This document shows, piece after piece, positions 1,341 to 7,668 of a stretch of 7,668 nucleotides of DNA. Within the stretch, counting starts at the first letter, position 1. Every line of letters begins with the position of its first letter. The DNA comes from a virus (Duplodnaviria; Heunggongvirae; Uroviricota; Caudoviricetes): IMG/VR virus record IMGVR_UViG_2651869696_000012. One strand, 5' to 3'. The translations under genes and the position numbers were made by a program. The notes under the pieces are model-generated. The model did no database searches, was not told the DNA's origin, and saw only the letters and a list, made by a program, of their open reading frames with translations.

Positions 1341-1517
1341 TTAACGGGGTTCTGTGTGGTCATTATCCTTAAGGTCAAGCGTCCATGTACGACCGAACAG
1401 TTTAAATACAACAAGCACTCTGACGAGGATGTAGCGGAGTATCAGACCTGCAATCAGCCCAACACCTCCACCAGCCCATACATCAGGTGACCCCAGTTCA
1501 GGAGGGAGATTTACCAT
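1341..1517 (-). CDS. Hypothetical small membrane protein (58 aa from the internal Met; the track ORF extends to 1586)
   Basis: Minus-strand ORF with a hydrophobic segment (GGVGLIAGLILRYILVRVLVVF). The Met at 1515-1517 is preceded on the minus strand by AAGGA with a 6-nt spacer; the upstream Met at 1586 has no SD and lies inside repeat R1. It is the only minus-strand candidate and is locally GC-richer, so it could be spurious. Confidence 0.3.
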   Translation of the reverse strand: MVNLPPELGSPDVWAGGGVGLIAGLILRYILVRVLVVFKLFGRTWTLDLKDNDHTEPR

Positions 1518-1532
1518 TAGTTTTCCTTGTAA

Positions 1533-1629
1533 GACGCTTTCAATCGCATTCTGACACAAAAAAGTACCTGACCTTATAGTTGACATGAAGAGGCCGTTTA
1601 ACTCGTTACAGAGCGATTGAAGAAGTCTG
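1533..1629. repeat. R1: ~97-bp element with ~20-bp terminal inverted repeats; copy 1 of 2
   Basis: Left arm gacgctttcaatcgcattctgacacaaaaaa, variable core, right arm gtttaactcgttacagagcgattgaagaagtctg. Left arm and reverse complement of right arm match (GACgCTtTCAATCGC..TCTG vs GACttCTTCAATCGCTCTG). Second copy at 3200-3320. Confidence 0.7.
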
Positions 1630-1765
1630 TGTGCAATGCAAAAACCATGCGGCCATTCTCATGGTTGATTCGGTTTATCGAATAAACCTCATAGCCACGC
1701 CTCATATTTTACTCTCCCCATAGAACCATTATACCACAGATGTTAATGAAATGTTAAAAAAATGC

Positions 1766-1844: not shown

Positions 1845-2402
1845 ATGAACGACAGAGAATTTAGAGCGATGCTTCAGGCATCAAGAGAACGCAACAAGCA
1901 CAACTCCTACAGCTACACAGACACCCCCACCAGCCACGAAGTACCCAAGTTCACCAGAGCAGAGCGCAAAGGCATTGACGAAGTAATTCGGGCAATTACA
2001 CCGAGGGAGCGTTATATGTCAATCAGAAAGAGCACGAAGAACACTATCAAGAATTATTTGAATAACTTTGATTCTTACGAGCAGTCATCAAGCTTGCTTG
2101 ATGATATTTTTATTGGATTCTGTAGAAGTGAAGGTCACCCGAAATACAACAAAAAACTATTTTATCTTCTAAAGAATCTTGATGAAATTAACGCAGCCAG
2201 CGTGACAAATTATCTTCAGCGACAAGCAACCAGACTTAGTTATGAATTACCAAGCGATAAATATTGTGCATTGCTTGCTGTAATGTGTGCAAAGCTAATT
2301 GGTGTTGTTGAACATCATGTTGCCGTTGGGAATATTGAACCAATGGAAAACGAGCAACCAGATTTCGAGTTTGACCCGTATTTAGTTACAGAGGAATTTT
2401 AA
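1845..2402 (+). CDS. Hypothetical protein (185 aa) with acidic C-terminal tail
   Basis: ORF with AAGGA 11 nt upstream; first gene of a translationally coupled cassette; C-terminus ..ENEQPDFEFDPYLVTEEF. No family recognised. Confidence 0.7.
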   Translation: MNDREFRAMLQASRERNKHNSYSYTDTPTSHEVPKFTRAERKGIDEVIRAITPRERYMSIRKSTKNTIKNYLNNFDSYEQSSSLLDDIFIGFCRSEGHPKYNKKLFYLLKNLDEINAASVTNYLQRQATRLSYELPSDKYCALLAVMCAKLIGVVEHHVAVGNIEPMENEQPDFEFDPYLVTEEF

Positions 2403-2403
2403 A

Positions 2404-2685
2404 ATGAAAAACAGACACACTCTAACCCGTATTTCAGAGGAAGCTTTTAATGAGCTTACCAGAATTAAACGAGCGACTAACTTGCCTCATCAAACTGTTA
2501 TGCAACTTGCAATTGCTAAAGAAGTTACTGAGTCGGATTTACTTAAATATCCAGTCTCTAAAGGTCGCAAACACATCCGAATTGCTCAGGACGCTTTAGA
2601 TACTTTGAAGGCACTTAACAGCTTTAAAATTGATATTGCCCGACTATTGAGTATTAAGATTCACAAGTTAGCGATGGAGGTTTAA
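2404..2685 (+). CDS. Putative ribbon-helix-helix-like DNA-binding protein (93 aa)
   Basis: GAGG 9 nt upstream (inside the TTACAGAGG motif). N-terminus NRHTLTRISEEAFNELTRIKRATNLPHQTVMQLAIAKEV fits the beta-strand / helix A / turn / helix B pattern of CopG/Arc-type RHH proteins; assignment by pattern only. Confidence 0.65.
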   Translation: MKNRHTLTRISEEAFNELTRIKRATNLPHQTVMQLAIAKEVTESDLLKYPVSKGRKHIRIAQDALDTLKALNSFKIDIARLLSIKIHKLAMEV

Positions 2686-2900
2686 TGCTATGCGTTACCT
2701 TTGAATACCACACGGATAAAATGATTCGCTACATCTCCGACCTCCTGATTAAAGGAAACGGATTCGGTGACATCCATAACTCAAGAGATATTTTCATTAA
2801 AGCCATTGGCCCAAATGAAGTACTGAAAACAGCAGTTACACCGGAATGGTTTGAGCGTCACAAGATTGAATTAGGTTATTGGGGTGAGGAGGTTTTATGA
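2685..2900 (+). CDS. Hypothetical protein (71 aa)
   Basis: Start overlaps upstream stop (TAATG); GGAGG 4 nt upstream; no recognisable family. Confidence 0.6.
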   Translation: MLCVTFEYHTDKMIRYISDLLIKGNGFGDIHNSRDIFIKAIGPNEVLKTAVTPEWFERHKIELGYWGEEVL

Positions 2901-3184
2901 AACCTTGGCATGAAGATGTTAGACGATATTTTACAGAACACCTTATCTATGATGAATCCAGTGATTCCCTGTGCTGGTCTGATGGAGAGTCAGTCACGAT
3001 AAATACCGACGACTACGGCAACAAAACATTTAATATAGGCCGATATACTTTCTACGTGAAATATGTTGTCTGGTTCCTTTATCATGGCTATCAATCCAAT
3101 AAGCAAATTATCCATCGAAATGGTAACAGAGCCGATACCAGACCAAAAAATCTTATGCAAGTCCGAGACTTTAAGAGAAATTAG
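2897..3184 (+). CDS. Small HNH-type (HNH_3-like) endonuclease-fold protein, apparently degenerate
   Basis: ATGA overlap with upstream gene; GAGGAGG 4 nt upstream. Sequence ..IYDESSDSLCW..GNKTF..YTFYVKYVVWFLYHGYQSNKQIIHRNGNRADTRPKNLMQV follows the architecture of phage HNH proteins (YDPETG..W ... HRLAW ... DHIDGN..NN...NLR) but with substitutions at usually conserved positions (HRL to KYV; DNR/NN to DT). Confidence 0.7.
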   Translation: MKPWHEDVRRYFTEHLIYDESSDSLCWSDGESVTINTDDYGNKTFNIGRYTFYVKYVVWFLYHGYQSNKQIIHRNGNRADTRPKNLMQVRDFKRN

Positions 3185-3199
3185 AAAAATAGCTTCTCA

Positions 3200-3320
3200 G
3201 ACGCTCTCAATCGCATTCTAACGCAAAAAACTATCTTATTTTAGGGTGGGTAATACCACTGTACAGGCTACCCCTGAAAAAGACTGTTTAGCTCGTTACA
3301 GAGCGATTGAGGAGGTCTGG
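3200..3320. repeat. R2: ~121-bp element with ~20-bp terminal inverted repeats; copy 2 of 2
   Basis: Left arm gacgctctcaatcgcattctaacgcaaaaaa, 55-bp variable core, right arm gtttagctcgttacagagcgattgaggaggtctgg. Same arms as R1 at 1533-1629 with a different, longer core. Immediately after the cassette stop (3184) and 20 bp before the next gene. Confidence 0.7.
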
Positions 3321-3340
3321 TAAAAAGGAGATTTTAAGAA

Positions 3341-3670
3341 ATGAGAGAATTAAACTTTCCATTACAAATTATGCTTGATATCGACACAGTAAATATGATT
3401 CAACACTTCGTTGATTCCGGTGTATCAATTGACTTTGACAGGCTGTTAAAGCTGATGGCTGATAATGCAGAAAACATCTCTGACTTTATTCAGTCGGTGG
3501 AGTTTAACGAGCCTCGAATGATGCTACCAATTACCGACTCAAACATGAAAAGATTGGTTATCGAGCAAACGAACAAACACAGTATTTCCCCAGAGCAATT
3601 TTTGAAAGGTGCTGTGACAATCCTGCACAGCGATAATATTCTGGTGACGGATTCTATGAGGGTTCACTAA
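3341..3670 (+). CDS. Hypothetical acidic protein (109 aa)
   Basis: AAGGAG 10 nt upstream; Asp/Glu-rich; no recognisable family. Confidence 0.7.
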   Translation: MRELNFPLQIMLDIDTVNMIQHFVDSGVSIDFDRLLKLMADNAENISDFIQSVEFNEPRMMLPITDSNMKRLVIEQTNKHSISPEQFLKGAVTILHSDNILVTDSMRVH

Positions 3671-3747
3671 TGGGATTGATAATTGCTTGGACAGCTTTAG
3701 GTTTATTTGTTGGTTGCTGGGTGGGCAACGCGGTAAATAAAAATTGA
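3670..3747 (+). CDS. Candidate 25-aa single-pass hydrophobic peptide (MGLIIAWTALGLFVGCWVGNAVNKN)
   Basis: ATG at 3670-3672 overlaps the TAA of the upstream gene (TAATG coupling); stop TGA at 3745-3747. Below the ORF-track cutoff; hydrophobic core with polar C-terminus. Confidence 0.3.
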   Translation: MGLIIAWTALGLFVGCWVGNAVNKN

Positions 3748-3771
3748 TGTTACCAATCTGTTAAAAGGCTG

Positions 3772-3800
3772 TTGACAAATAATCTTAAGCATGACATAAT
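3772..3800 (+). promoter_or_regulatory. Sigma70-like promoter
   Basis: TTGACA (3772-3777), 17-bp spacer, CATAAT (3795-3800); AT-rich upstream. Confidence 0.5.
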
Positions 3801-3806
3801 TGTATA

Positions 3807-3998
3807 TATAGGAAGAGCAATTTTTCCTAAAATCATATTTTCAATAATCCGATGGATGGATATTCTGAGTTGGAAAGGTGCAATGCTTTTCGTCATGGCC
3901 TTTCAGTTTAGTCTGAGAGGTCATCTCAAAAAGTGCTTAATCATTCATTATTGAACCCTTACAGCTTTGCCCTAACTCATGATTAGGGCGTTTTCTTT
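3807..3998 (+). ncRNA. Candidate small RNA (~190 nt) between the promoter and an intrinsic terminator
   Basis: No ORF with an RBS in this unit (the 60-aa track ORF starts inside the -35 box). Internal 12-bp stem ATGGCCTTTCAG (3895-3906) / CTGAGAGGTCAT (3913-3924) with a 6-nt loop; its two non-Watson-Crick positions are G-U wobbles only in the + strand RNA. Ends at the terminator at 3969-3998. Coordinates approximate. Confidence 0.3.
3969..3998 (+). terminator. Intrinsic terminator
   Basis: Stem gccctaa (3969-3975) / ttagggc (3983-3989), 7-nt loop, followed by gTTTTCTTT. Confidence 0.6.
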
Positions 3999-4067
3999 AA
4001 GAGTTTTTAAACAGAGCTTTTAAAGAAAGTTTTTCCTGAAACTTCGTTAACGTTAAAGCAAACCTTC

Positions 4068-4101
4068 AAAGCCCTTCACAGATTATGTTTAGGGCTTTTT
4101 T
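4068..4101 (+). terminator. Second candidate intrinsic terminator
   Basis: aaagccct (4068-4075) / agggcttt (4091-4098) with a 15-nt loop, followed by a T run to 4101. Loop is large, so lower confidence. Confidence 0.45.
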
Positions 4102-4218
4102 CAGCTTTTAAAAAGCATACTTGGCAAACGCCTTTTAAGTCTCTTCTAAGTTCGTAGGCTGTCAGGTGTGCTTTTTAAAAACTGAAACATAAATTATCTT
4201 AGAAGAGGAAAAATAATA

Positions 4219-4923
4219 ATGTCTATCCGTGATGAACATGAAATGATTATCGAAAACAAACCAAGTGCACTTGATATTCACGAATTAAGTTTGCGTGAAT
4301 CTTTTGATAGAGCTTGGCGGGAATCACACGAAGTAAATAAAGGTCCATATATTCCACCAGAACCACTCGAGATTCCAAGAGTTGAAATTGATTTTTCGAT
4401 GAATGAGGAATGTGAGCTTGATTTGAAACTGAAGCTGCAACGCCGATATTTCCAAGCTATTAAAGACTCTCAAGAAGCAATGAGAAGTGTTTACGAGAAA
4501 ATTCAGTCCAAGCTTGAAGACGAAATCGACGAAATGGCTATTTTGATGGAGCTTCAAACCAATTCTTATGCTTATTTCTCTCGACTAGACCGTGACGGTT
4601 GGGGGTATGACCCTGTAGAGATTGGTAAAGTGATTGCAGATTTACCAGAAGGTCAAAGGGTTATTCGTACGGAAAGGGCTATCAGAGCGCCACATCAACT
4701 GTCTCTAATTGTTGCTGATAAATCACAAGCTGAGCTTGAAGAAATTGCCAAAGAGAAACTGATGAAAGCAAGAGAAAATGAGATTAATTTGCTGAAATCA
4801 AGACTGGCTAAGCTGATTAGTGACCATCAAGCGCTGGCTAAGGAGTACCGTCAAGAGTTGGCACAGATTATCAGCTTCAATGATTTTCTGAGTGTTCCAC
4901 GAGAATTTAGCAAGGCTGTTTAA
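4219..4923 (+). CDS. Hypothetical glutamate-rich, probably helical/coiled-coil protein (234 aa)
   Basis: GAGG 10 nt upstream; long charged helical-looking stretches (..AELEEIAKEKLMKARENEINLLKSRLAKLISDHQALAKEYRQELAQ..); no recognisable family. Confidence 0.75.
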   Translation: MSIRDEHEMIIENKPSALDIHELSLRESFDRAWRESHEVNKGPYIPPEPLEIPRVEIDFSMNEECELDLKLKLQRRYFQAIKDSQEAMRSVYEKIQSKLEDEIDEMAILMELQTNSYAYFSRLDRDGWGYDPVEIGKVIADLPEGQRVIRTERAIRAPHQLSLIVADKSQAELEEIAKEKLMKARENEINLLKSRLAKLISDHQALAKEYRQELAQIISFNDFLSVPREFSKAV

Positions 4924-5161: not shown

Positions 5162-5210
5162 AAAAGATTGGTTGGGTGTATGAGATAGGTTCTATCGAAT
5201 CTATAACACG

Positions 5211-5252
5211 GGGAGAGATTATCGATATTATTCGGTAGTTTCTCCCTTTTTT
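5211..5252 (+). terminator. Candidate intrinsic terminator after the 71-aa gene
   Basis: Stem gggagaga (5211-5218) / tttctccc (5239-5246), one G-U, 20-nt loop, followed by TTTTTT (5247-5252). Confidence 0.5.
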
Positions 5253-5344: not shown

Positions 5345-7393
5345 ATGGCACAATTTAAAGTTGATAGTTTTATCGTTGAGCTAGGCTTCAATGAAAACGT
5401 TATTAAGAGCTTGCAAAGAGTTGAAAAGGCAGCTTTGCAGTCAGCACAAAGAATTGAAAAGAACCTTAACAAAGGCTTCAAGATTAATACCAAGCAACTT
5501 GACAGCAATCTGACAAGTTCTTTGAAGTCAATGGAAGGAAAAATTAATAAGACCTTTGACCGTCTGGAAGCTAGAGCAAGAAACACAAAAGTTTTCCGTT
5601 TCACAAGTCAGGTTAACGATGCTGTTAATCCTCCAAAACAACCGAGACAGCCACGAATTAGCGGCAACAGAGCAATCACAGCAGCTTATTCAGCTAATAT
5701 GTCTAAGTTAAAGGGCTTTGACCCTATTTTGCAGAAATACATCAAATCTCAGTTTTACGGGCTATCTGCTAAAGCCGGTTCAATGGATTCTTCAAAATTC
5801 AATGAGAAGCTGTCTCAGTTAAATGCTTCAGTCAGAGAAGCAATTGCTAAAGCTAAAGGTCATACATCCACCAGCATTAATGGTGACAGAGCAGCTAGCA
5901 GCCTTGATAACCTGTCTTCGGCAGCAGTCAAAACAGCAGGTGCATTTATCTCAATGCAGGCTGTATTAGCCAGTTATCAGAAGATTATGGAAGTTGGTTT
6001 ACAGCGTGCAAGTGCTGAGCGTTCAATTGATTTCGTATTTGATAAAGATGCAGGTCAGGTAAAAGAGTTCACAAAGTCATTAGCTCAAACAACGGGTTTA
6101 GATATCGCTGAACTGCAATCACAGTTTGCTGGTTTTGGTGCTTCAGCTAAAGAATCTATGGGTATTCAGGGTTCTGAAGAACTTTTTAAAAATATGATTG
6201 GCTATTCTCGTTTAATGGGTCGAAGTGAAGAAGAGATTAAGCGAGCATTAACAGCGCTATCGCAGATGGCTGGTAAGGGTCAGGTGATGGCTGAGGAGCT
6301 GAAAGGTCAATTAGCTGAAGCTGTTCCTGGTATGGTTCAGGTATTCGCTAAAGCAACCGGAAAGACTGAACAGGAATTATTTGATGCCATGAAGAAGGGG
6401 GCTTTAAAATCTGCCGATACTCTTCAGAAGGTCACTCAGGAACTGAATAAACAAATCACCGCTAAAGGTGGCTGGAAAGCCATTTCAGAAAGTACACAGG
6501 CACAACTAGGGAACTTGAAAAACTCTTGGAATACCACGCTTGACAGTATTTTCAGAGGTTCTGAAGATGGTTTACAGGACTTCACAAGAAGCTTAACAAC
6601 GCTTTTAAATAGTCTTGGTGGGAGTGGTAAAAGTCTTGGTGAATCTCTTGGTAGTCTCATGACTTCTATGTCAAGTGGTGTGGATTCATTGACTGATATC
6701 AGCTACAGGGTAAGAGCATTCTTTGATGAGGTGACATTAGCTTACCGTGGTTTAACCGATGAACAAAAGAAAGTAGTTGATGCTTTAGGTTCTGGCTTGA
6801 TTAATAGTTTAAAAGTCTTGGCTGGTGTTATTGCTGTGAATAAAGTTGTTGGTGTAACCAGAAGTATTTACGGGCTTATGACTGCTATCACAAGATTAGG
6901 TCAGGTTGCTGATACTACAGCGGATAACGTGAATAGAAAGAATGGGAAACCATCAAGACTGAATCTTGGGAATATGCTATTAGCTGGTAGCGCTCTCTAT
7001 GCAGGTTATGAAAGATTAGCCTCTACACCTGAACGAATGGAAGCACAAGCTAAATTACCAGAGTTAGCTAAAGAATCTGGACTTAAGCCAGTATTTACTA
7101 TGGACGATGTGAAAGGTTGGTTTAATAGTGCAGCTATGAATCTTGCTAACTTCCAGCATCCAGAATTAAACAACATTAAGCAAGATGCGGCATTAACGAA
7201 TACGGATATCCAAAGCCTGAGAGATGAAATTAGTGCTTTGAGCAAACGTATTCAGGAGCCTGTGAAAGTTTCACTTGGTGGTGAAGTTGCTATTAAACCA
7301 GATGAAACCAGCTTTATGACATTTAACAGCAGTCTGTACGACCAATACGCAGAAGCTACGCTATTAAGTTCATCATTCCCAGAAGATGATTGA
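5345..7393 (+). CDS. Tape-measure-domain protein (682 aa)
   Basis: Long ORF with GAGGTGA 11 nt upstream. Central region ..RALTALSQMAGKGQVMAEELKGQLAEAVPGMVQVFAKATGKTEQELFDAMKKGALKSADTLQKV.. matches, as I recall it, the conserved tape-measure domain of lambda-H-like proteins (TIGR02675-type). Gly/Ser/Ala/Lys-rich with hydrophobic segments (..LAGVIAVNKVVGV..). Short for a classical tape measure and lacks adjacent tail genes. Confidence 0.8.
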   Translation: MAQFKVDSFIVELGFNENVIKSLQRVEKAALQSAQRIEKNLNKGFKINTKQLDSNLTSSLKSMEGKINKTFDRLEARARNTKVFRFTSQVNDAVNPPKQPRQPRISGNRAITAAYSANMSKLKGFDPILQKYIKSQFYGLSAKAGSMDSSKFNEKLSQLNASVREAIAKAKGHTSTSINGDRAASSLDNLSSAAVKTAGAFISMQAVLASYQKIMEVGLQRASAERSIDFVFDKDAGQVKEFTKSLAQTTGLDIAELQSQFAGFGASAKESMGIQGSEELFKNMIGYSRLMGRSEEEIKRALTALSQMAGKGQVMAEELKGQLAEAVPGMVQVFAKATGKTEQELFDAMKKGALKSADTLQKVTQELNKQITAKGGWKAISESTQAQLGNLKNSWNTTLDSIFRGSEDGLQDFTRSLTTLLNSLGGSGKSLGESLGSLMTSMSSGVDSLTDISYRVRAFFDEVTLAYRGLTDEQKKVVDALGSGLINSLKVLAGVIAVNKVVGVTRSIYGLMTAITRLGQVADTTADNVNRKNGKPSRLNLGNMLLAGSALYAGYERLASTPERMEAQAKLPELAKESGLKPVFTMDDVKGWFNSAAMNLANFQHPELNNIKQDAALTNTDIQSLRDEISALSKRIQEPVKVSLGGEVAIKPDETSFMTFNSSLYDQYAEATLLSSSFPEDD

Positions 7394-7533: not shown

Positions 7534-7668
7534 AATCAAAGGAGAATTTAATGATTTACACTAATCAGCTTCGGGTGATGCTGCCAACTTACTGATTTAG
7601 TGTATGATGGTGTTTTTGAGGTGCTCCAGTGGCTTCTGTTTCTATCAGCTGTCCCTCCTGTTCAGCTA

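What the first reader, a model, noticed from the sequence alone, without database searches (positions are those of the whole stretch)
3772..4101. Promoter-to-terminator unit with no credible ORF: candidate phage sRNA
A near-consensus sigma70 promoter (TTGACA-17-CATAAT) is followed ~190 bp later by a clean intrinsic terminator and ~70 bp further by a second one. The only ORF in between starts inside the -35 box and has no RBS. The unit contains a 12-bp stem (3895-3924) whose two non-canonical pairs are G-U wobbles only in the + strand transcript, which argues for selection on RNA structure in that orientation.
Basis: partly seen in the sequence, partly recalled or inferred. Interest (0 to 1): 0.55.

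Follow-up and report, generated by a model that had tools for sequence, protein, structure and literature searches.

The report
Structured leader RNA of satellite tail operon
The promoter-to-terminator unit is real and strongly conserved, but it is best read as the front part of a long, folded control region (a transcription stop followed by a hairpin that hides the ribosome-binding site) in front of the tail-gene operon of an uncharacterised ~11-kb mobile island of E. coli, not as a proven free-standing small RNA.

Summary
Observation confirmed. The promoter (TTGACA-17-CATAAT with extended -10 TG, 3772-3800) is one of the two best sigma-70 matches in the window. Two + strand intrinsic terminators follow (3968-3998, 4068-4101), and the 12-bp stem 3895-3924 has two G-U pairs. 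The window belongs to an ~11-kb island inserted in yecE. The island has a serine recombinase and tape-measure and Dit-like tail genes, and related leaders occur in 478 of 5426 complete E. coli genomes.

In 56 homologous leaders from E. coli, E. albertii, Citrobacter and metagenomes, the promoter, a 5' hairpin, an invariant motif (GTGCAATGC core) and the long hairpin are kept. At least one terminator is always present. Hairpins keep pairing through G-C/G-U/A-U changes and some compensatory changes. The + strand folds better than the - strand in 53 of 53 leaders. No ORF is conserved and Rfam has no match.

The unit always sits upstream of, and co-oriented with, the same 234-236-aa gene. Between terminator and gene lies a 25-31-bp hairpin (4099-4187). 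Its apical loop is complementary to that gene's Shine-Dalgarno region, and the two covary across sequence types. The mRNA must therefore start upstream of this hairpin, most simply at this promoter. Best reading: an attenuating, SD-sequestering operon leader. A trans-acting role for the terminated ~190-nt RNA remains possible but unproven.

The parts
3747..3774 (+). Three direct repeats TGTT(A/G) at ~11-bp spacing (3747, 3758, 3769). The last overlaps the -35. Candidate binding array for a DNA-binding regulator.
   Evidence: The repeats are kept in all leaders while the spacers between them vary. Their function is inferred.
3772..3800 (+). Sigma-70 promoter: TTGACA, 17-nt spacer, CATAAT, with extended -10 TG. 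The inferred transcription start is at about 3806-3808.
   Evidence: 11/12 match plus TG. Invariant in alignment A1. Present in all 56 leaders. The start site was not measured.
3809..3829 (+). P1: 5'-terminal hairpin of 8 bp with loop GCAAU, a purine-rich 5' arm and a pyrimidine-rich 3' arm.
   Evidence: Folds. 23 sequence variants all keep 6-10 bp. RNAalifold predicts it, with compensatory changes at 4 pairs.
3830..3872 (+). Variable segment that exists in three sequence types. The window carries type W, which contains CAATAATCCGATGGATGGATA. It forms small hairpins and is a site of mini-hairpin insertions in homologues.
   Evidence: The 21-nt stretch 3842-3862 is identical, in sense orientation, to codons of the other allele of the downstream gene.
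3873..3892 (+). Invariant motif GAAAGGTGCAATGCTTTTCG, with core GTGCAATGC at 3878-3886. The 5' half is unpaired in the centroid fold and the 3' half forms the base of P3. It resembles an SD plus AUG.
   Evidence: Invariant in alignments A1 and A2. The core was the search anchor for most metagenome loci. It is independently kept in BLAST- and protein-selected loci, including Citrobacter.
3885..3934 (+). P3: long hairpin made of an outer 7-8-bp stem (3885-3892 with 3927-3934) and an inner 12-bp stem (3895-3906 with 3913-3924).
   Evidence: 26 sequence variants all fold. In the covariance-model alignment A4, 91.9% of cells are paired against 39-52% when partners are slid. Many G-C/G-U/A-U changes and 4 pairs with changes on both sides.
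3968..3998 (+). Terminator 1: GCCCTAA/TTAGGGC stem followed by TTTTCTTT. The interrupted U tract suggests a leaky terminator. It is absent in about a quarter of homologues.
   Evidence: compensatory GCCCTC/GAGGGC in Citrobacter.
3991..4029 (+). Middle hairpin of about 15 bp that overlaps the U tract of terminator 1.
   Evidence: I11. A G-U to G-C change is seen in L005 and a new covarying stem in L164 and L170.
4068..4101 (+). Terminator 2: AAAGCCCT/AGGGCTTT stem followed by T6. A terminator of this GCCCT...AGGGC-T(4-7) type (T5-6 in most) precedes P6 in every leader.
   Evidence: (I12).
4099..4187 (+). P6: long hairpin (28-nt arms; 22-31 bp across homologues) with at least five sequence types. 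The apical loop carries an anti-SD sequence, UCUCUUCUAAG at 4140-4150.
   Evidence: (I1). It is more stable on the + strand in 38 of 42 unique variants.
4198..4221 (+). SD region CUUAGAAGAGG (4198-4208) and the ATG (4219) of the 234-aa gene. The SD region pairs with the P6 loop over 11 bp.
   Evidence: Complementarity is present and covaries in all P6 types. Own duplex energy is -16.6 kcal/mol against -6.9 +/- 2.4 for shuffled SD regions, and the gamma type is specific against the other types.
4219..4923 (+). First gene of the downstream operon (234 aa, predicted coiled coil, function unknown). It is followed by a 71-aa gene, the tape-measure gene (5345-7393) and, in intact islands, a Dit-like gene.
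1631..1639 (-). GCAUUGCAC in the leftward transcript, inside the small ORF 1705..1598. It is the exact complement of the invariant core of the leader RNA and is a candidate trans target.
   Evidence: Present in 13 of about 21 informative loci and absent in islands with the other regulatory module.

Best explanation
The interval is the promoter-proximal part of a ~410-nt cis-regulatory leader (3772-4218). This leader gates the tail-gene operon (234-aa gene, 71-aa gene, tape-measure protein, Dit-like protein) of an ~11-kb integrative, satellite-like island.

Proposed sequence of events:
1. A strong sigma-70 promoter starts transcription at about 3807.
2. The nascent RNA folds into a 5' hairpin (P1), a variable hairpin, an invariant motif and a long hairpin (P3).
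3. Most polymerases stop at terminator 1 or 2, releasing RNAs of about 190 nt and 295 nt.
4. Transcripts that read through form hairpin P6, whose apical loop base-pairs with the Shine-Dalgarno region of the first gene and blocks translation.
5. Expression therefore needs two locks to be released: read-through of the terminators and opening or cleavage of P6. The trigger is probably a factor of the island or of an infecting helper phage. It could act on the invariant RNA motif or on the TGTTR repeats at the promoter.

Shown here: sequence anatomy, conservation, covariation, strand polarity, obligatory linkage to the gene, and loop-SD covariation.

Inferred: the transcription start, termination efficiency, regulated read-through, the identity of the trigger, and RNase III-type processing of P6.
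For: Promoter and terminators are present and + oriented.

The conserved core of the intergenic region in 478 E. coli genomes runs from just upstream of the promoter to the second terminator (query 77-429 = window 3747-4099).

All 53 leaders with enough flank have the same gene family downstream, co-oriented, with a 295-480-nt UTR. Most were found through the RNA motif, not the gene.

No + strand promoter-like site lies between 3800 and 4219.

Structure is conserved beyond the terminators. P6 exists in at least five sequence types, always as 22-31 bp.

The P6 loop and SD covary:
- alpha: CUCUUCUAAG / CUUAGAAGAG
- beta: UUCUAAGUGU / ACACUUAGAG
- gamma and delta: UUCACCUC / GAGGUGAA
- epsilon: CCUCUAAGUG / CAUUUAGAGG
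Own duplex energy is -16.6 kcal/mol against -6.9 +/- 2.4 for shuffled SD regions.

Hairpins P1, P3 and terminator 1 are predicted independently by RNAalifold. P3 is 91.9% paired against 39-52% for slid controls.

The + strand leader is more stable than the - strand in 53 of 53 leaders, by 21.6 kcal/mol on average.

The ORF from the invariant AUG varies from 4 to 50 codons, with different peptide sequences beyond the first few residues.
Against: There are no expression data. The transcription start, termination and read-through are all inferred.

Transcripts from the upstream operon (1845-3748) could also enter the leader. No terminator separates them, so P6 does not prove that the mRNA starts at this particular promoter.

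The covariation statistics for P3 are modest: score 0.154 against a shuffle mean of 0.134, reached by 6 of 500 shuffles. Most changes are one-sided. The sequences are closely related and mosaic, so independent events are few.

Alpha, beta and epsilon P6 loops are related to each other. Clear independent loop-SD covariation rests mainly on alpha-like against gamma/delta types.

The function of the invariant motif is unexplained by this model.

No antiterminator or RNA-binding protein was identified. Structure models of the neighbouring proteins were of low confidence.
Confidence: 0.6

Rival explanations
1. Free-standing trans-acting small RNA. The ~190-nt terminated transcript is the functional product. 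It base-pairs through its invariant single-stranded motif with mRNAs of the island, the host or a phage. Its position upstream of the operon is incidental or secondary.
For: The unit is bounded by a promoter and a terminator. It has a 5' hairpin and a terminator hairpin, as many sRNAs do. An invariant 12-20-nt motif sits next to variable flanks. The core GUGCAAUGC is exactly complementary to GCAUUGCAC inside the SD-led small ORF of the leftward transcript (1631-1639). This site is conserved in 13 loci. About 0.08 such matches are expected by chance over the island.
Against: The RNA is never found away from the 234-236-aa gene. The leftward complementary site is only 9 bp, lies in coding sequence, shows no covariation, and is missing from islands with the alternative regulatory module, where the motif is nonetheless invariant. 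No other complement of the motif exists in the island. There is no Rfam family. Conserved structure continues past the terminators.
Confidence: 0.2
2. P4/P1-type immunity RNA. A stable RNA processed from the leader acts on nascent transcripts of the same operon and forces premature termination at the downstream terminators. This would keep the island's late genes off until a helper phage interferes.
For: The overall anatomy matches P4's PLE-CI-timm arrangement: a constitutive-looking promoter, a structured leader RNA, terminators, then the operon, all in a phage-dependent element (established knowledge of P4; anatomy). The invariant motif resembles the 3' arm of P6 and can pair with its 5' arm.
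Against: There is no similarity to the C4/CI RNA family or to any other Rfam family at E <= 1. The motif-P6 arm complementarity is not better than shuffles (typical z about -1.4, range +0.4 to -3.3). No conserved repeated seqA/seqC-like sites were found. The modules recombine freely, without linked changes.
Confidence: 0.08
3. Processive antitermination site of the lambda PR'/6S/tR' (Q) or HK022 put type. The promoter-proximal DNA or RNA element modifies RNA polymerase so that it ignores the leader terminators and later ones. The ~190-nt RNA would be the default by-product, like lambda 6S RNA.
For: A near-consensus promoter is followed by an RNA of about 190 nt ending at a terminator, directly upstream of structural genes. 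The promoter region is invariant, with conserved repeats. In the window, a further strong terminator (5210-5247) lies inside the operon before the tape-measure gene. This is a special case of the best explanation.
Against: No Q-like or other antiterminator was recognised in the island. The closest tail-gene relatives are virulent Felixounavirus phages, not lambdoid phages. The internal terminator is not seen in a divergent homologue. A 27-nt insertion between the start site and P1 is tolerated in many homologues. No put model exists to test against.
Confidence: 0.1
4. Small-protein gene. The ORF from the ATG at 3856 (32 aa), or from the invariant AUG at 3884 (23 aa), would be the functional product.
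For: The invariant motif looks like an SD (AAGGUG) followed 2 nt later by AUG, and the first three codons (MLF/MLS) are nearly constant.
Against: The ORF from 3884 ranges from 4 to 50 codons, with different sequences beyond the first few codons, across 54 leaders. The region holding the ATG at 3856 exists in three unrelated sequence types with indels. Substitutions in 3895-3924 preserve base pairing, not codons.
Confidence: 0.02

Closest known systems
Lambda late leader (PR' promoter, 194-nt 6S RNA, tR' terminator)
   Same: A strong promoter makes an RNA of about 190 nt that ends at an intrinsic terminator directly upstream of co-oriented structural genes. The short RNA is the default product of a gated operon.
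   Different: No sequence similarity and no Q-like protein were found. The element is a small island whose tail genes resemble those of virulent Felixounavirus phages. This leader has a second terminator and an SD-sequestering hairpin, which lambda lacks.
Satellite P4 immunity leader (PLE promoter, CI RNA, timm) and the P1/P7 C4 RNAs (Rfam RF01695)
   Same: A phage-dependent mobile element in which a structured RNA encoded in the leader of a key operon is coupled to premature termination.
   Different: cmscan finds no match to that family. No conserved internal complementary sites equivalent to seqA/seqB/seqC were found. Processing is untested.
SD-sequestering leader folds (for example hok mRNA fold-back inhibition, and RNase III-activated phage mRNAs such as lambda cIII and T7 early mRNAs)
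   Same: A cis RNA element pairs with the Shine-Dalgarno region and keeps a gene untranslated until the RNA is refolded or cleaved. P6 is long enough (22-31 bp) to be an RNase III substrate.
   Different: Here the SD pairs with the apical loop of a long upstream hairpin, forming a pseudoknot-like contact. No antisense partner is known. RNase III involvement is only inferred.
Type III toxin-antitoxin loci (ToxIN)
   Same: Promoter, non-coding RNA, intrinsic terminator, then a co-oriented protein gene, with the terminator setting the RNA:protein ratio.
   Different: No tandem repeat array was found, only a 2.7-copy AT-rich 13-nt repeat at 4000-4034 in the middle hairpin. The downstream protein is a predicted coiled coil followed by tail genes, not a ToxN-like nuclease.

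Membership tests
Sigma-70 promoter | -35 and -10 hexamers close to consensus with a 16-18-nt spacer | tested here: met
   TTGACA-17-CATAAT with extended -10 TG, 11/12. Conserved in all homologues.
Sigma-70 promoter | Mapped transcription start or demonstrated activity | not testable with these tools
   No expression data are available.
Intrinsic (Rho-independent) terminator | G+C-rich hairpin immediately followed by a U tract on the transcribed strand | tested here: met
   Terminator 1 was found by the scan. Terminator 2 is visible in the sequence and folds. Neither has a T-run on the - strand. A terminator of this type precedes P6 in every leader.
Any Rfam 15 family (including C4/P4 CI RNA, known sRNAs and riboswitches) | Covariance-model match at or near the gathering score | tested here: not met
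   cmscan at E <= 1 gives only two spurious sub-threshold hits, both to the 4066-4218 region: a plant miRNA model on the - strand and a Streptococcus sRNA model at E = 0.82.
Trans-acting base-pairing sRNA | Independent gene whose conservation is not tied to one neighbouring gene | tested here: not met
   All 53 leaders with enough flank have the same gene downstream, co-oriented.
Trans-acting base-pairing sRNA | Conserved accessible seed with a conserved complementary target | tested here: inconclusive
   An invariant motif is present. A 9-nt exact complement lies in the leftward small ORF in 13 of about 21 loci. It is absent in the other island type, and there is no covariation.
Cis-regulatory operon leader (attenuator plus translational operator) | Fixed position and orientation upstream of the regulated gene, with a terminator between promoter and gene | tested here: met
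Cis-regulatory operon leader (attenuator plus translational operator) | RNA structure that occludes the ribosome-binding site, supported by covariation | tested here: met
   P6 loop-SD complementarity of 9-13 bp in all sequence types, covarying.
Cis-regulatory operon leader (attenuator plus translational operator) | Regulated alternative structure or identified effector | tested here: not met
   No conserved antiterminator pairing was found. Motif-P6 arm pairing is not above shuffles. The effector is unknown.
P4-type immunity RNA | Stable RNA complementary to repeated sites in its own leader | tested here: not met
Type III toxin-antitoxin | Tandem repeat array encoding the antitoxin RNA | tested here: not met
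   TRF finds only a 2.7-copy AT-rich 13-mer in the middle hairpin.
Small-protein gene | ORF length and peptide sequence conserved among homologues | tested here: not met
   ORF lengths range from 4 to 50 codons with different peptide sequences beyond the first few residues.

The most novel reading that the evidence does not exclude
The leader RNA domain (P1, variable hairpin, invariant GUGCAAUGC motif, P3) could be a new class of switch through which a tail-gene-carrying satellite senses infection by a virulent Felixounavirus-like helper. A phage or island factor binding the motif would convert polymerase or RNA to a read-through, translatable state. The released ~190-nt RNA would also act in trans on the island's leftward small-ORF transcript, through the 9-nt complementarity. 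That would make it a bifunctional immunity/induction RNA of a previously undescribed satellite family.
Probability: 0.15. Interest if true: 0.75.

Novelty: new member of a known kind. Interest (0 to 1): 0.5.

Why it matters
The island family carrying this leader occurs in about 9% of complete E. coli genomes. It also occurs in E. albertii and Citrobacter, and homologous proteins carry Shigella and Salmonella source names. It appears undescribed: my literature searches found nothing, and all its genes except the recombinases, the methylase, the HNH endonuclease, the tape-measure gene and the baseplate/Dit-like gene are annotated as hypothetical.

The island encodes its own tape-measure and Dit-like tail-initiator proteins, distantly related to those of virulent Felixounavirus phages. 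That suggests a satellite or defence element that interferes with, or borrows, tail assembly.

The leader described here is the most conserved non-coding part of the island and is the obvious control point of the tail operon. Knowing that it combines attenuation with SD sequestration gives direct, testable handles for finding out what switches the element on: terminator, P6-loop and invariant-motif mutants. It also adds a well-supported new structured RNA family to a class of elements where RNA-based control is so far known mainly from P4.

Tried and rejected
1. Rfam scan at E <= 1: nothing relevant.

2. tRNA/tmRNA and tandem-repeat scans: none. This rules out a tRNA-like RNA or a ToxI-like array.

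3. Phage and plasmid collections: no homologue of the leader or of the 234-aa gene; only IS1 matches.

4. Coding hypotheses: rejected, because ORF length and sequence are not conserved.

5. Pairing of the invariant motif with the 5' arm of P6, as an antiterminator or anti-P6 idea: energies are not better than shuffles.

6. Search for the complement of the motif as a 17-mer with up to 3 mismatches in the window and in a whole island: only the motif itself was found. The 9-nt site at 1631-1639 was found later, by eye and by regular expression.

7. Crude duplex scan of the 190-nt RNA against the translation-start regions of the window's genes: uninformative, giving long gapped duplexes with z mostly between -1 and +1.

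8. Correlating the variable-segment type, P1 type or P3 type with the P6 type or the gene allele: none seen by inspection of the leader lists (not formally tested). The modules are mosaic.

9. AlphaFold models of the 109-aa upstream protein (pLDDT 50) and the 234-aa downstream protein (pLDDT 57): too poor for fold searches.

10. Literature searches for the island, for yecE-integrated satellites, for Felixounavirus satellites and for the motif string: nothing pertinent.

11. The idea that the operon is punctuated by several conserved terminators: dropped. The strong 5210-5247 terminator is not detected in a divergent homologue.
Full report
**1. What is in the sequence**

- Promoter: TTGACA at 3772-3777, a 17-nt spacer and CATAAT at 3795-3800, with a TG one base upstream of the -10. 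It scores 11/12 and ties for the best sigma-70 match in the window.
- Terminator 1: stem 3968-3990 followed by TTTTCTTT, found by the scan.
- Terminator 2: AAAGCCCT at 4068-4075 pairing with AGGGCTTT at 4091-4098, then T6. The scan missed it because its loop is longer than 8 nt. It is plain in the sequence, in the repeat finder and in the folds.
- Both terminators carry a T-run only on the + strand.
- The 12-bp stem 3895-3906/3913-3924 has exactly two G-U pairs.
- The + strand RNA folds better than dinucleotide shuffles: z = -3.45 for 3807-3998 and -5.69 for 3807-4101.
- Promoter-like motifs as a class are not enriched in the window (22 found against 18.5 expected). The case for the promoter therefore rests on conservation.

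**2. Context**

The window is not from a known phage or plasmid. Only its last 95 bases (IS1) match those collections.

It belongs to an ~11-kb island inserted in yecE (DUF72), between yecN and yecD of E. coli. The gene order is:
- a small resolvase-like recombinase;
- in the window, a Dam-like methylase with a helix-turn-helix domain (121-783; in L001/L002 this position holds the small recombinase-family gene, relation not tested);
- about 1 kb without annotated genes, holding a divergent pair of strong promoters (1757-1728 on the - strand, 1766-1794 on the + strand);
- a rightward operon of small unknown genes, including an HNH endonuclease and a 109-aa protein;
- a 25-aa hydrophobic ORF (3671-3748);
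- the 470-bp region under study;
- a 234-aa gene, a 71-aa gene, a tape-measure gene (5345-7393) and a Dit-like 'baseplate' gene;
- a large serine recombinase.

The tape-measure protein is closest, at 29% identity over its full length, to those of virulent Felixounavirus phages. Homologues of the intergenic region occur in 478 of 5426 complete E. coli genomes, always on the chromosome. Their shared core is window 3747-4099, from just upstream of the promoter to the second terminator.

**3. Comparative set**

I collected 56 different homologous leaders.
- 16 came from E. coli genomes chosen across the BLAST ranking.
- One came from E. albertii, found through the protein.
- About 35 came from viral-contig and metagenome collections, found with a 16-mer of the RNA.
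- Four divergent copies, including Citrobacter freundii, were found through 65-69%-identical proteins.

Because most were found through the RNA motif, their gene context is an unbiased observation. Every leader with enough flank (53 of 53) is followed by the same gene family, co-oriented. That family has two very different alleles, MSIRDEHE... and MTNDLYING.... The 5' UTR is 295-480 nt.

**4. Architecture and evidence for RNA-level selection**

All leaders share the same order of elements.
- The promoter, preceded by three TGTT(A/G) direct repeats at about 11-bp spacing. The spacers between the repeats vary.
- P1, a 5' hairpin. All 23 variants fold, and RNAalifold predicts it with compensatory changes.
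- A variable segment of three unrelated sequence types.
- An invariant motif GAAAGGTGCAATGCTTTTCG. The core AGTGCAATGCTT is kept even in Citrobacter.
- A (CATT)n spacer.
- One or two terminators. Terminator 1 is missing in about a quarter of leaders, but a GCCCT...AGGGC-T(4-7) terminator (T5-6 in most) is always present.
- P6, a long hairpin (28-nt arms; 22-31 bp across homologues).
- The SD and ATG of the gene.

For P3, a covariance-model alignment of 52 sequences (29 distinct) has 91.9% of cells paired, against 39-52% when partners are slid by 1-3 columns. Most changes are G-C/G-U/A-U transitions, and four pairs change on both sides. The covariation score exceeds all but 6 of 500 shuffles. 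That is modest but consistent.

The whole leader is more stable as + strand RNA than as - strand RNA in 53 of 53 cases, by 21.6 kcal/mol on average.

No ORF is conserved. The ORF from the invariant AUG at 3884 ranges from 4 to 50 codons with different sequences. The ATG at 3856 lies in the segment that exists in three unrelated versions.

Rfam has nothing. There are no tRNA-like genes and no tandem repeat array, only a 2.7-copy AT-rich 13-nt repeat in the middle hairpin.

**5. The decisive observation: P6 and the Shine-Dalgarno region**

P6 exists in at least five sequence types that all form a long hairpin. In each type the apical loop is complementary to the SD region of the downstream gene, and the two change together.

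| P6 type | Loop | SD region |
|---|---|---|
| alpha | CUCUUCUAAG | CUUAGAAGAG |
| beta | UUCUAAGUGU | ACACUUAGAG |
| gamma / delta | UUCACCUC | GAGGUGAA |
| epsilon | CCUCUAAGUG | CAUUUAGAGG |

In the window (alpha type) the contact is 11 bp, 4140-4150 with 4198-4208. The complementarity extends beyond the purine core of the SD into flanking bases.

The mean duplex energy with the leader's own SD region is -16.6 kcal/mol, against -6.9 +/- 2.4 for shuffled SD regions. The gamma/delta type is specific when tested against the other types.

This is a translational lock, and it means that P6 is part of the mRNA. P6 begins within the U tract of terminator 2, and no + strand promoter-like site lies between 3800 and 4219. 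The mRNA must therefore come from read-through of the terminators. The source is most simply the 3772 promoter, though transcripts of the upstream operon could contribute, since no terminator separates them.

**6. Interpretation**

The interval is the promoter-proximal two-thirds of a cis-regulatory leader with two locks: attenuation at one or two intrinsic terminators, and SD sequestration by P6.

A ~295-nt species ending at terminator 2 is also expected. Terminator 1 has an interrupted U tract and is dispensable in some homologues, so it is likely leaky.

What releases the locks is unknown. Three features point to specific factors:
- the invariant RNA motif;
- the conserved TGTTR repeats at the promoter;
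- the length of P6, which makes it a plausible RNase III substrate.

A trigger linked to helper-phage infection is a reasonable inference for an element that carries tail genes. It remains an inference.

**7. Could the short RNA also act in trans?**

One lead supports this. The core GUGCAAUGC is exactly complementary to GCAUUGCAC in the transcript from the leftward promoter (1757-1728). The site lies inside a small ORF with a good SD (1705..1598; 35 aa here, 28 aa in homologues without a 21-nt in-frame hairpin insertion). It is present in 13 of about 21 loci that include that region.

Four points weigh against it.
- The match is only 9 bp, with about 0.08 expected by chance over the island.
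- It is in coding sequence.
- It shows no covariation.
- It is absent from islands that carry a different regulatory module yet keep the motif invariant.

I therefore give a primary trans-acting role about 0.2, and treat a dual role as the most novel reading not excluded.

A P4-like self-targeting immunity RNA is less likely. There is no C4/CI similarity, and the motif's complementarity to the P6 arm is not above shuffles. A Q- or put-like antitermination site is a special case of the leader model that I cannot test. No antiterminator was recognised.

**8. Novelty and verdict**

The mechanisms proposed (attenuation, SD sequestration) are well known. The RNA family, and apparently the island family, are not described. 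Rfam has no match, nothing turned up in the literature searches, and no paper holds the motif string.

I rate it a new member of a known kind, of moderate interest (0.5). The stand-alone sRNA label is only partly right. The real value is as the control point of an abundant, uncharacterised, tail-gene-carrying island.

Noticed in passing
window 3671-3748 (+): A 25-aa hydrophobic ORF (MGLIIAWTALGLFVGCWVGNAVNKN) overlaps the stop codon of the 109-aa gene (TAATG). It is unannotated in RefSeq. It is conserved as a peptide in two types (21 aa and 25 aa) across about 54 homologues, so it is likely a real small membrane protein.
   Followed up: partly
homologous leaders L003-L006, L010, L011, L014, L015, L026, L163, L167 and others; window 1669-1690 (-): A family of mini hairpins, (T)GAGG-stem-(N)TTC(N)-stem-CCGAA, of about 20-27 nt. 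They are inserted at different sites in different homologues: just after the transcription start, before the invariant motif, inside terminator loops, and in frame (21 nt) inside the leftward small ORF. In the leader and leftward-ORF insertions examined they lie in the transcribed orientation. There are 55 hits in 421 kb of island loci. They look like a small mobile or protein-binding RNA hairpin.
   Followed up: partly
window 1598-1757 (-): A strong leftward promoter (TTAACA-18-TATAAT, 11/12 plus TG) is followed by GGGGAGAG (SD) and a 35-aa ORF (MRRGYEVYSINRINHENGRMVFALHTDFFNRSVTS). This ORF is conserved, whereas the larger 81-aa ORF 1586..1341 is not (its ATG is CAGG in homologues). It contains GCATTGCAC, complementary to the invariant motif of the leader RNA.
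   Followed up: partly
window 3842-3862 versus L008 2098-2118, L009 2154-2174, L079 1952-1972: A 21-nt stretch of the leader's variable segment (CAATAATCCGATGGATGGATA) is identical, in the same orientation, to codons ~140-146 (NNPMDGY) of the alternative allele of the downstream gene in other islands. L008 carries both copies about 620 nt apart. It is unexplained; it may be a recombination footprint or a shared binding site.
   Followed up: partly
window 3747-3774 (+): Three direct repeats TGTT(A/G) at about 11-bp spacing lie upstream of, and overlapping, the -35. They are conserved while the spacers diverge, which suggests a DNA-binding regulator acts at this promoter. The arrangement loosely resembles a Pho-box-like direct-repeat array.
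   Followed up: partly
whole window; L001, L002, L164-L170: The host element is an ~11-kb island in yecE with a large serine recombinase, a small resolvase-like recombinase, and tape-measure and Dit-like genes closest to Felixounavirus (29% identity). It has no capsid or terminase genes. It is present in about 9% of complete E. coli genomes and also in E. albertii and Citrobacter. It is possibly an undescribed satellite or a tail-interference defence element.
   Followed up: partly
window 7574-7668: An IS1 end begins 180 bp after the tape-measure gene, where intact islands carry the Dit-like gene. This copy of the island is therefore probably disrupted by IS1 at that point.
   Followed up: no
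window 3939-3953: The spacer after P3 contains a (CATT)n microsatellite-like run. Its length varies among homologues (about 2-4 units), which indicates a tolerant linker.
   Followed up: no
window 5210-5247 (+): A strong intrinsic terminator (16-bp stem plus T5) lies between the 71-aa gene and the tape-measure gene, inside the presumed operon. It was not detected at the equivalent place in the divergent homologue L167.
   Followed up: partly
window 3341-3670 (+): The 109-aa protein immediately upstream of the leader is predicted, at low confidence (pLDDT 50), as two beta-alpha-alpha units. That would fit a tandem ribbon-helix-helix DNA-binding fold. There are 3454 protein clusters in the database, and the 120 listed are named hypothetical or unnamed.
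   Followed up: partly
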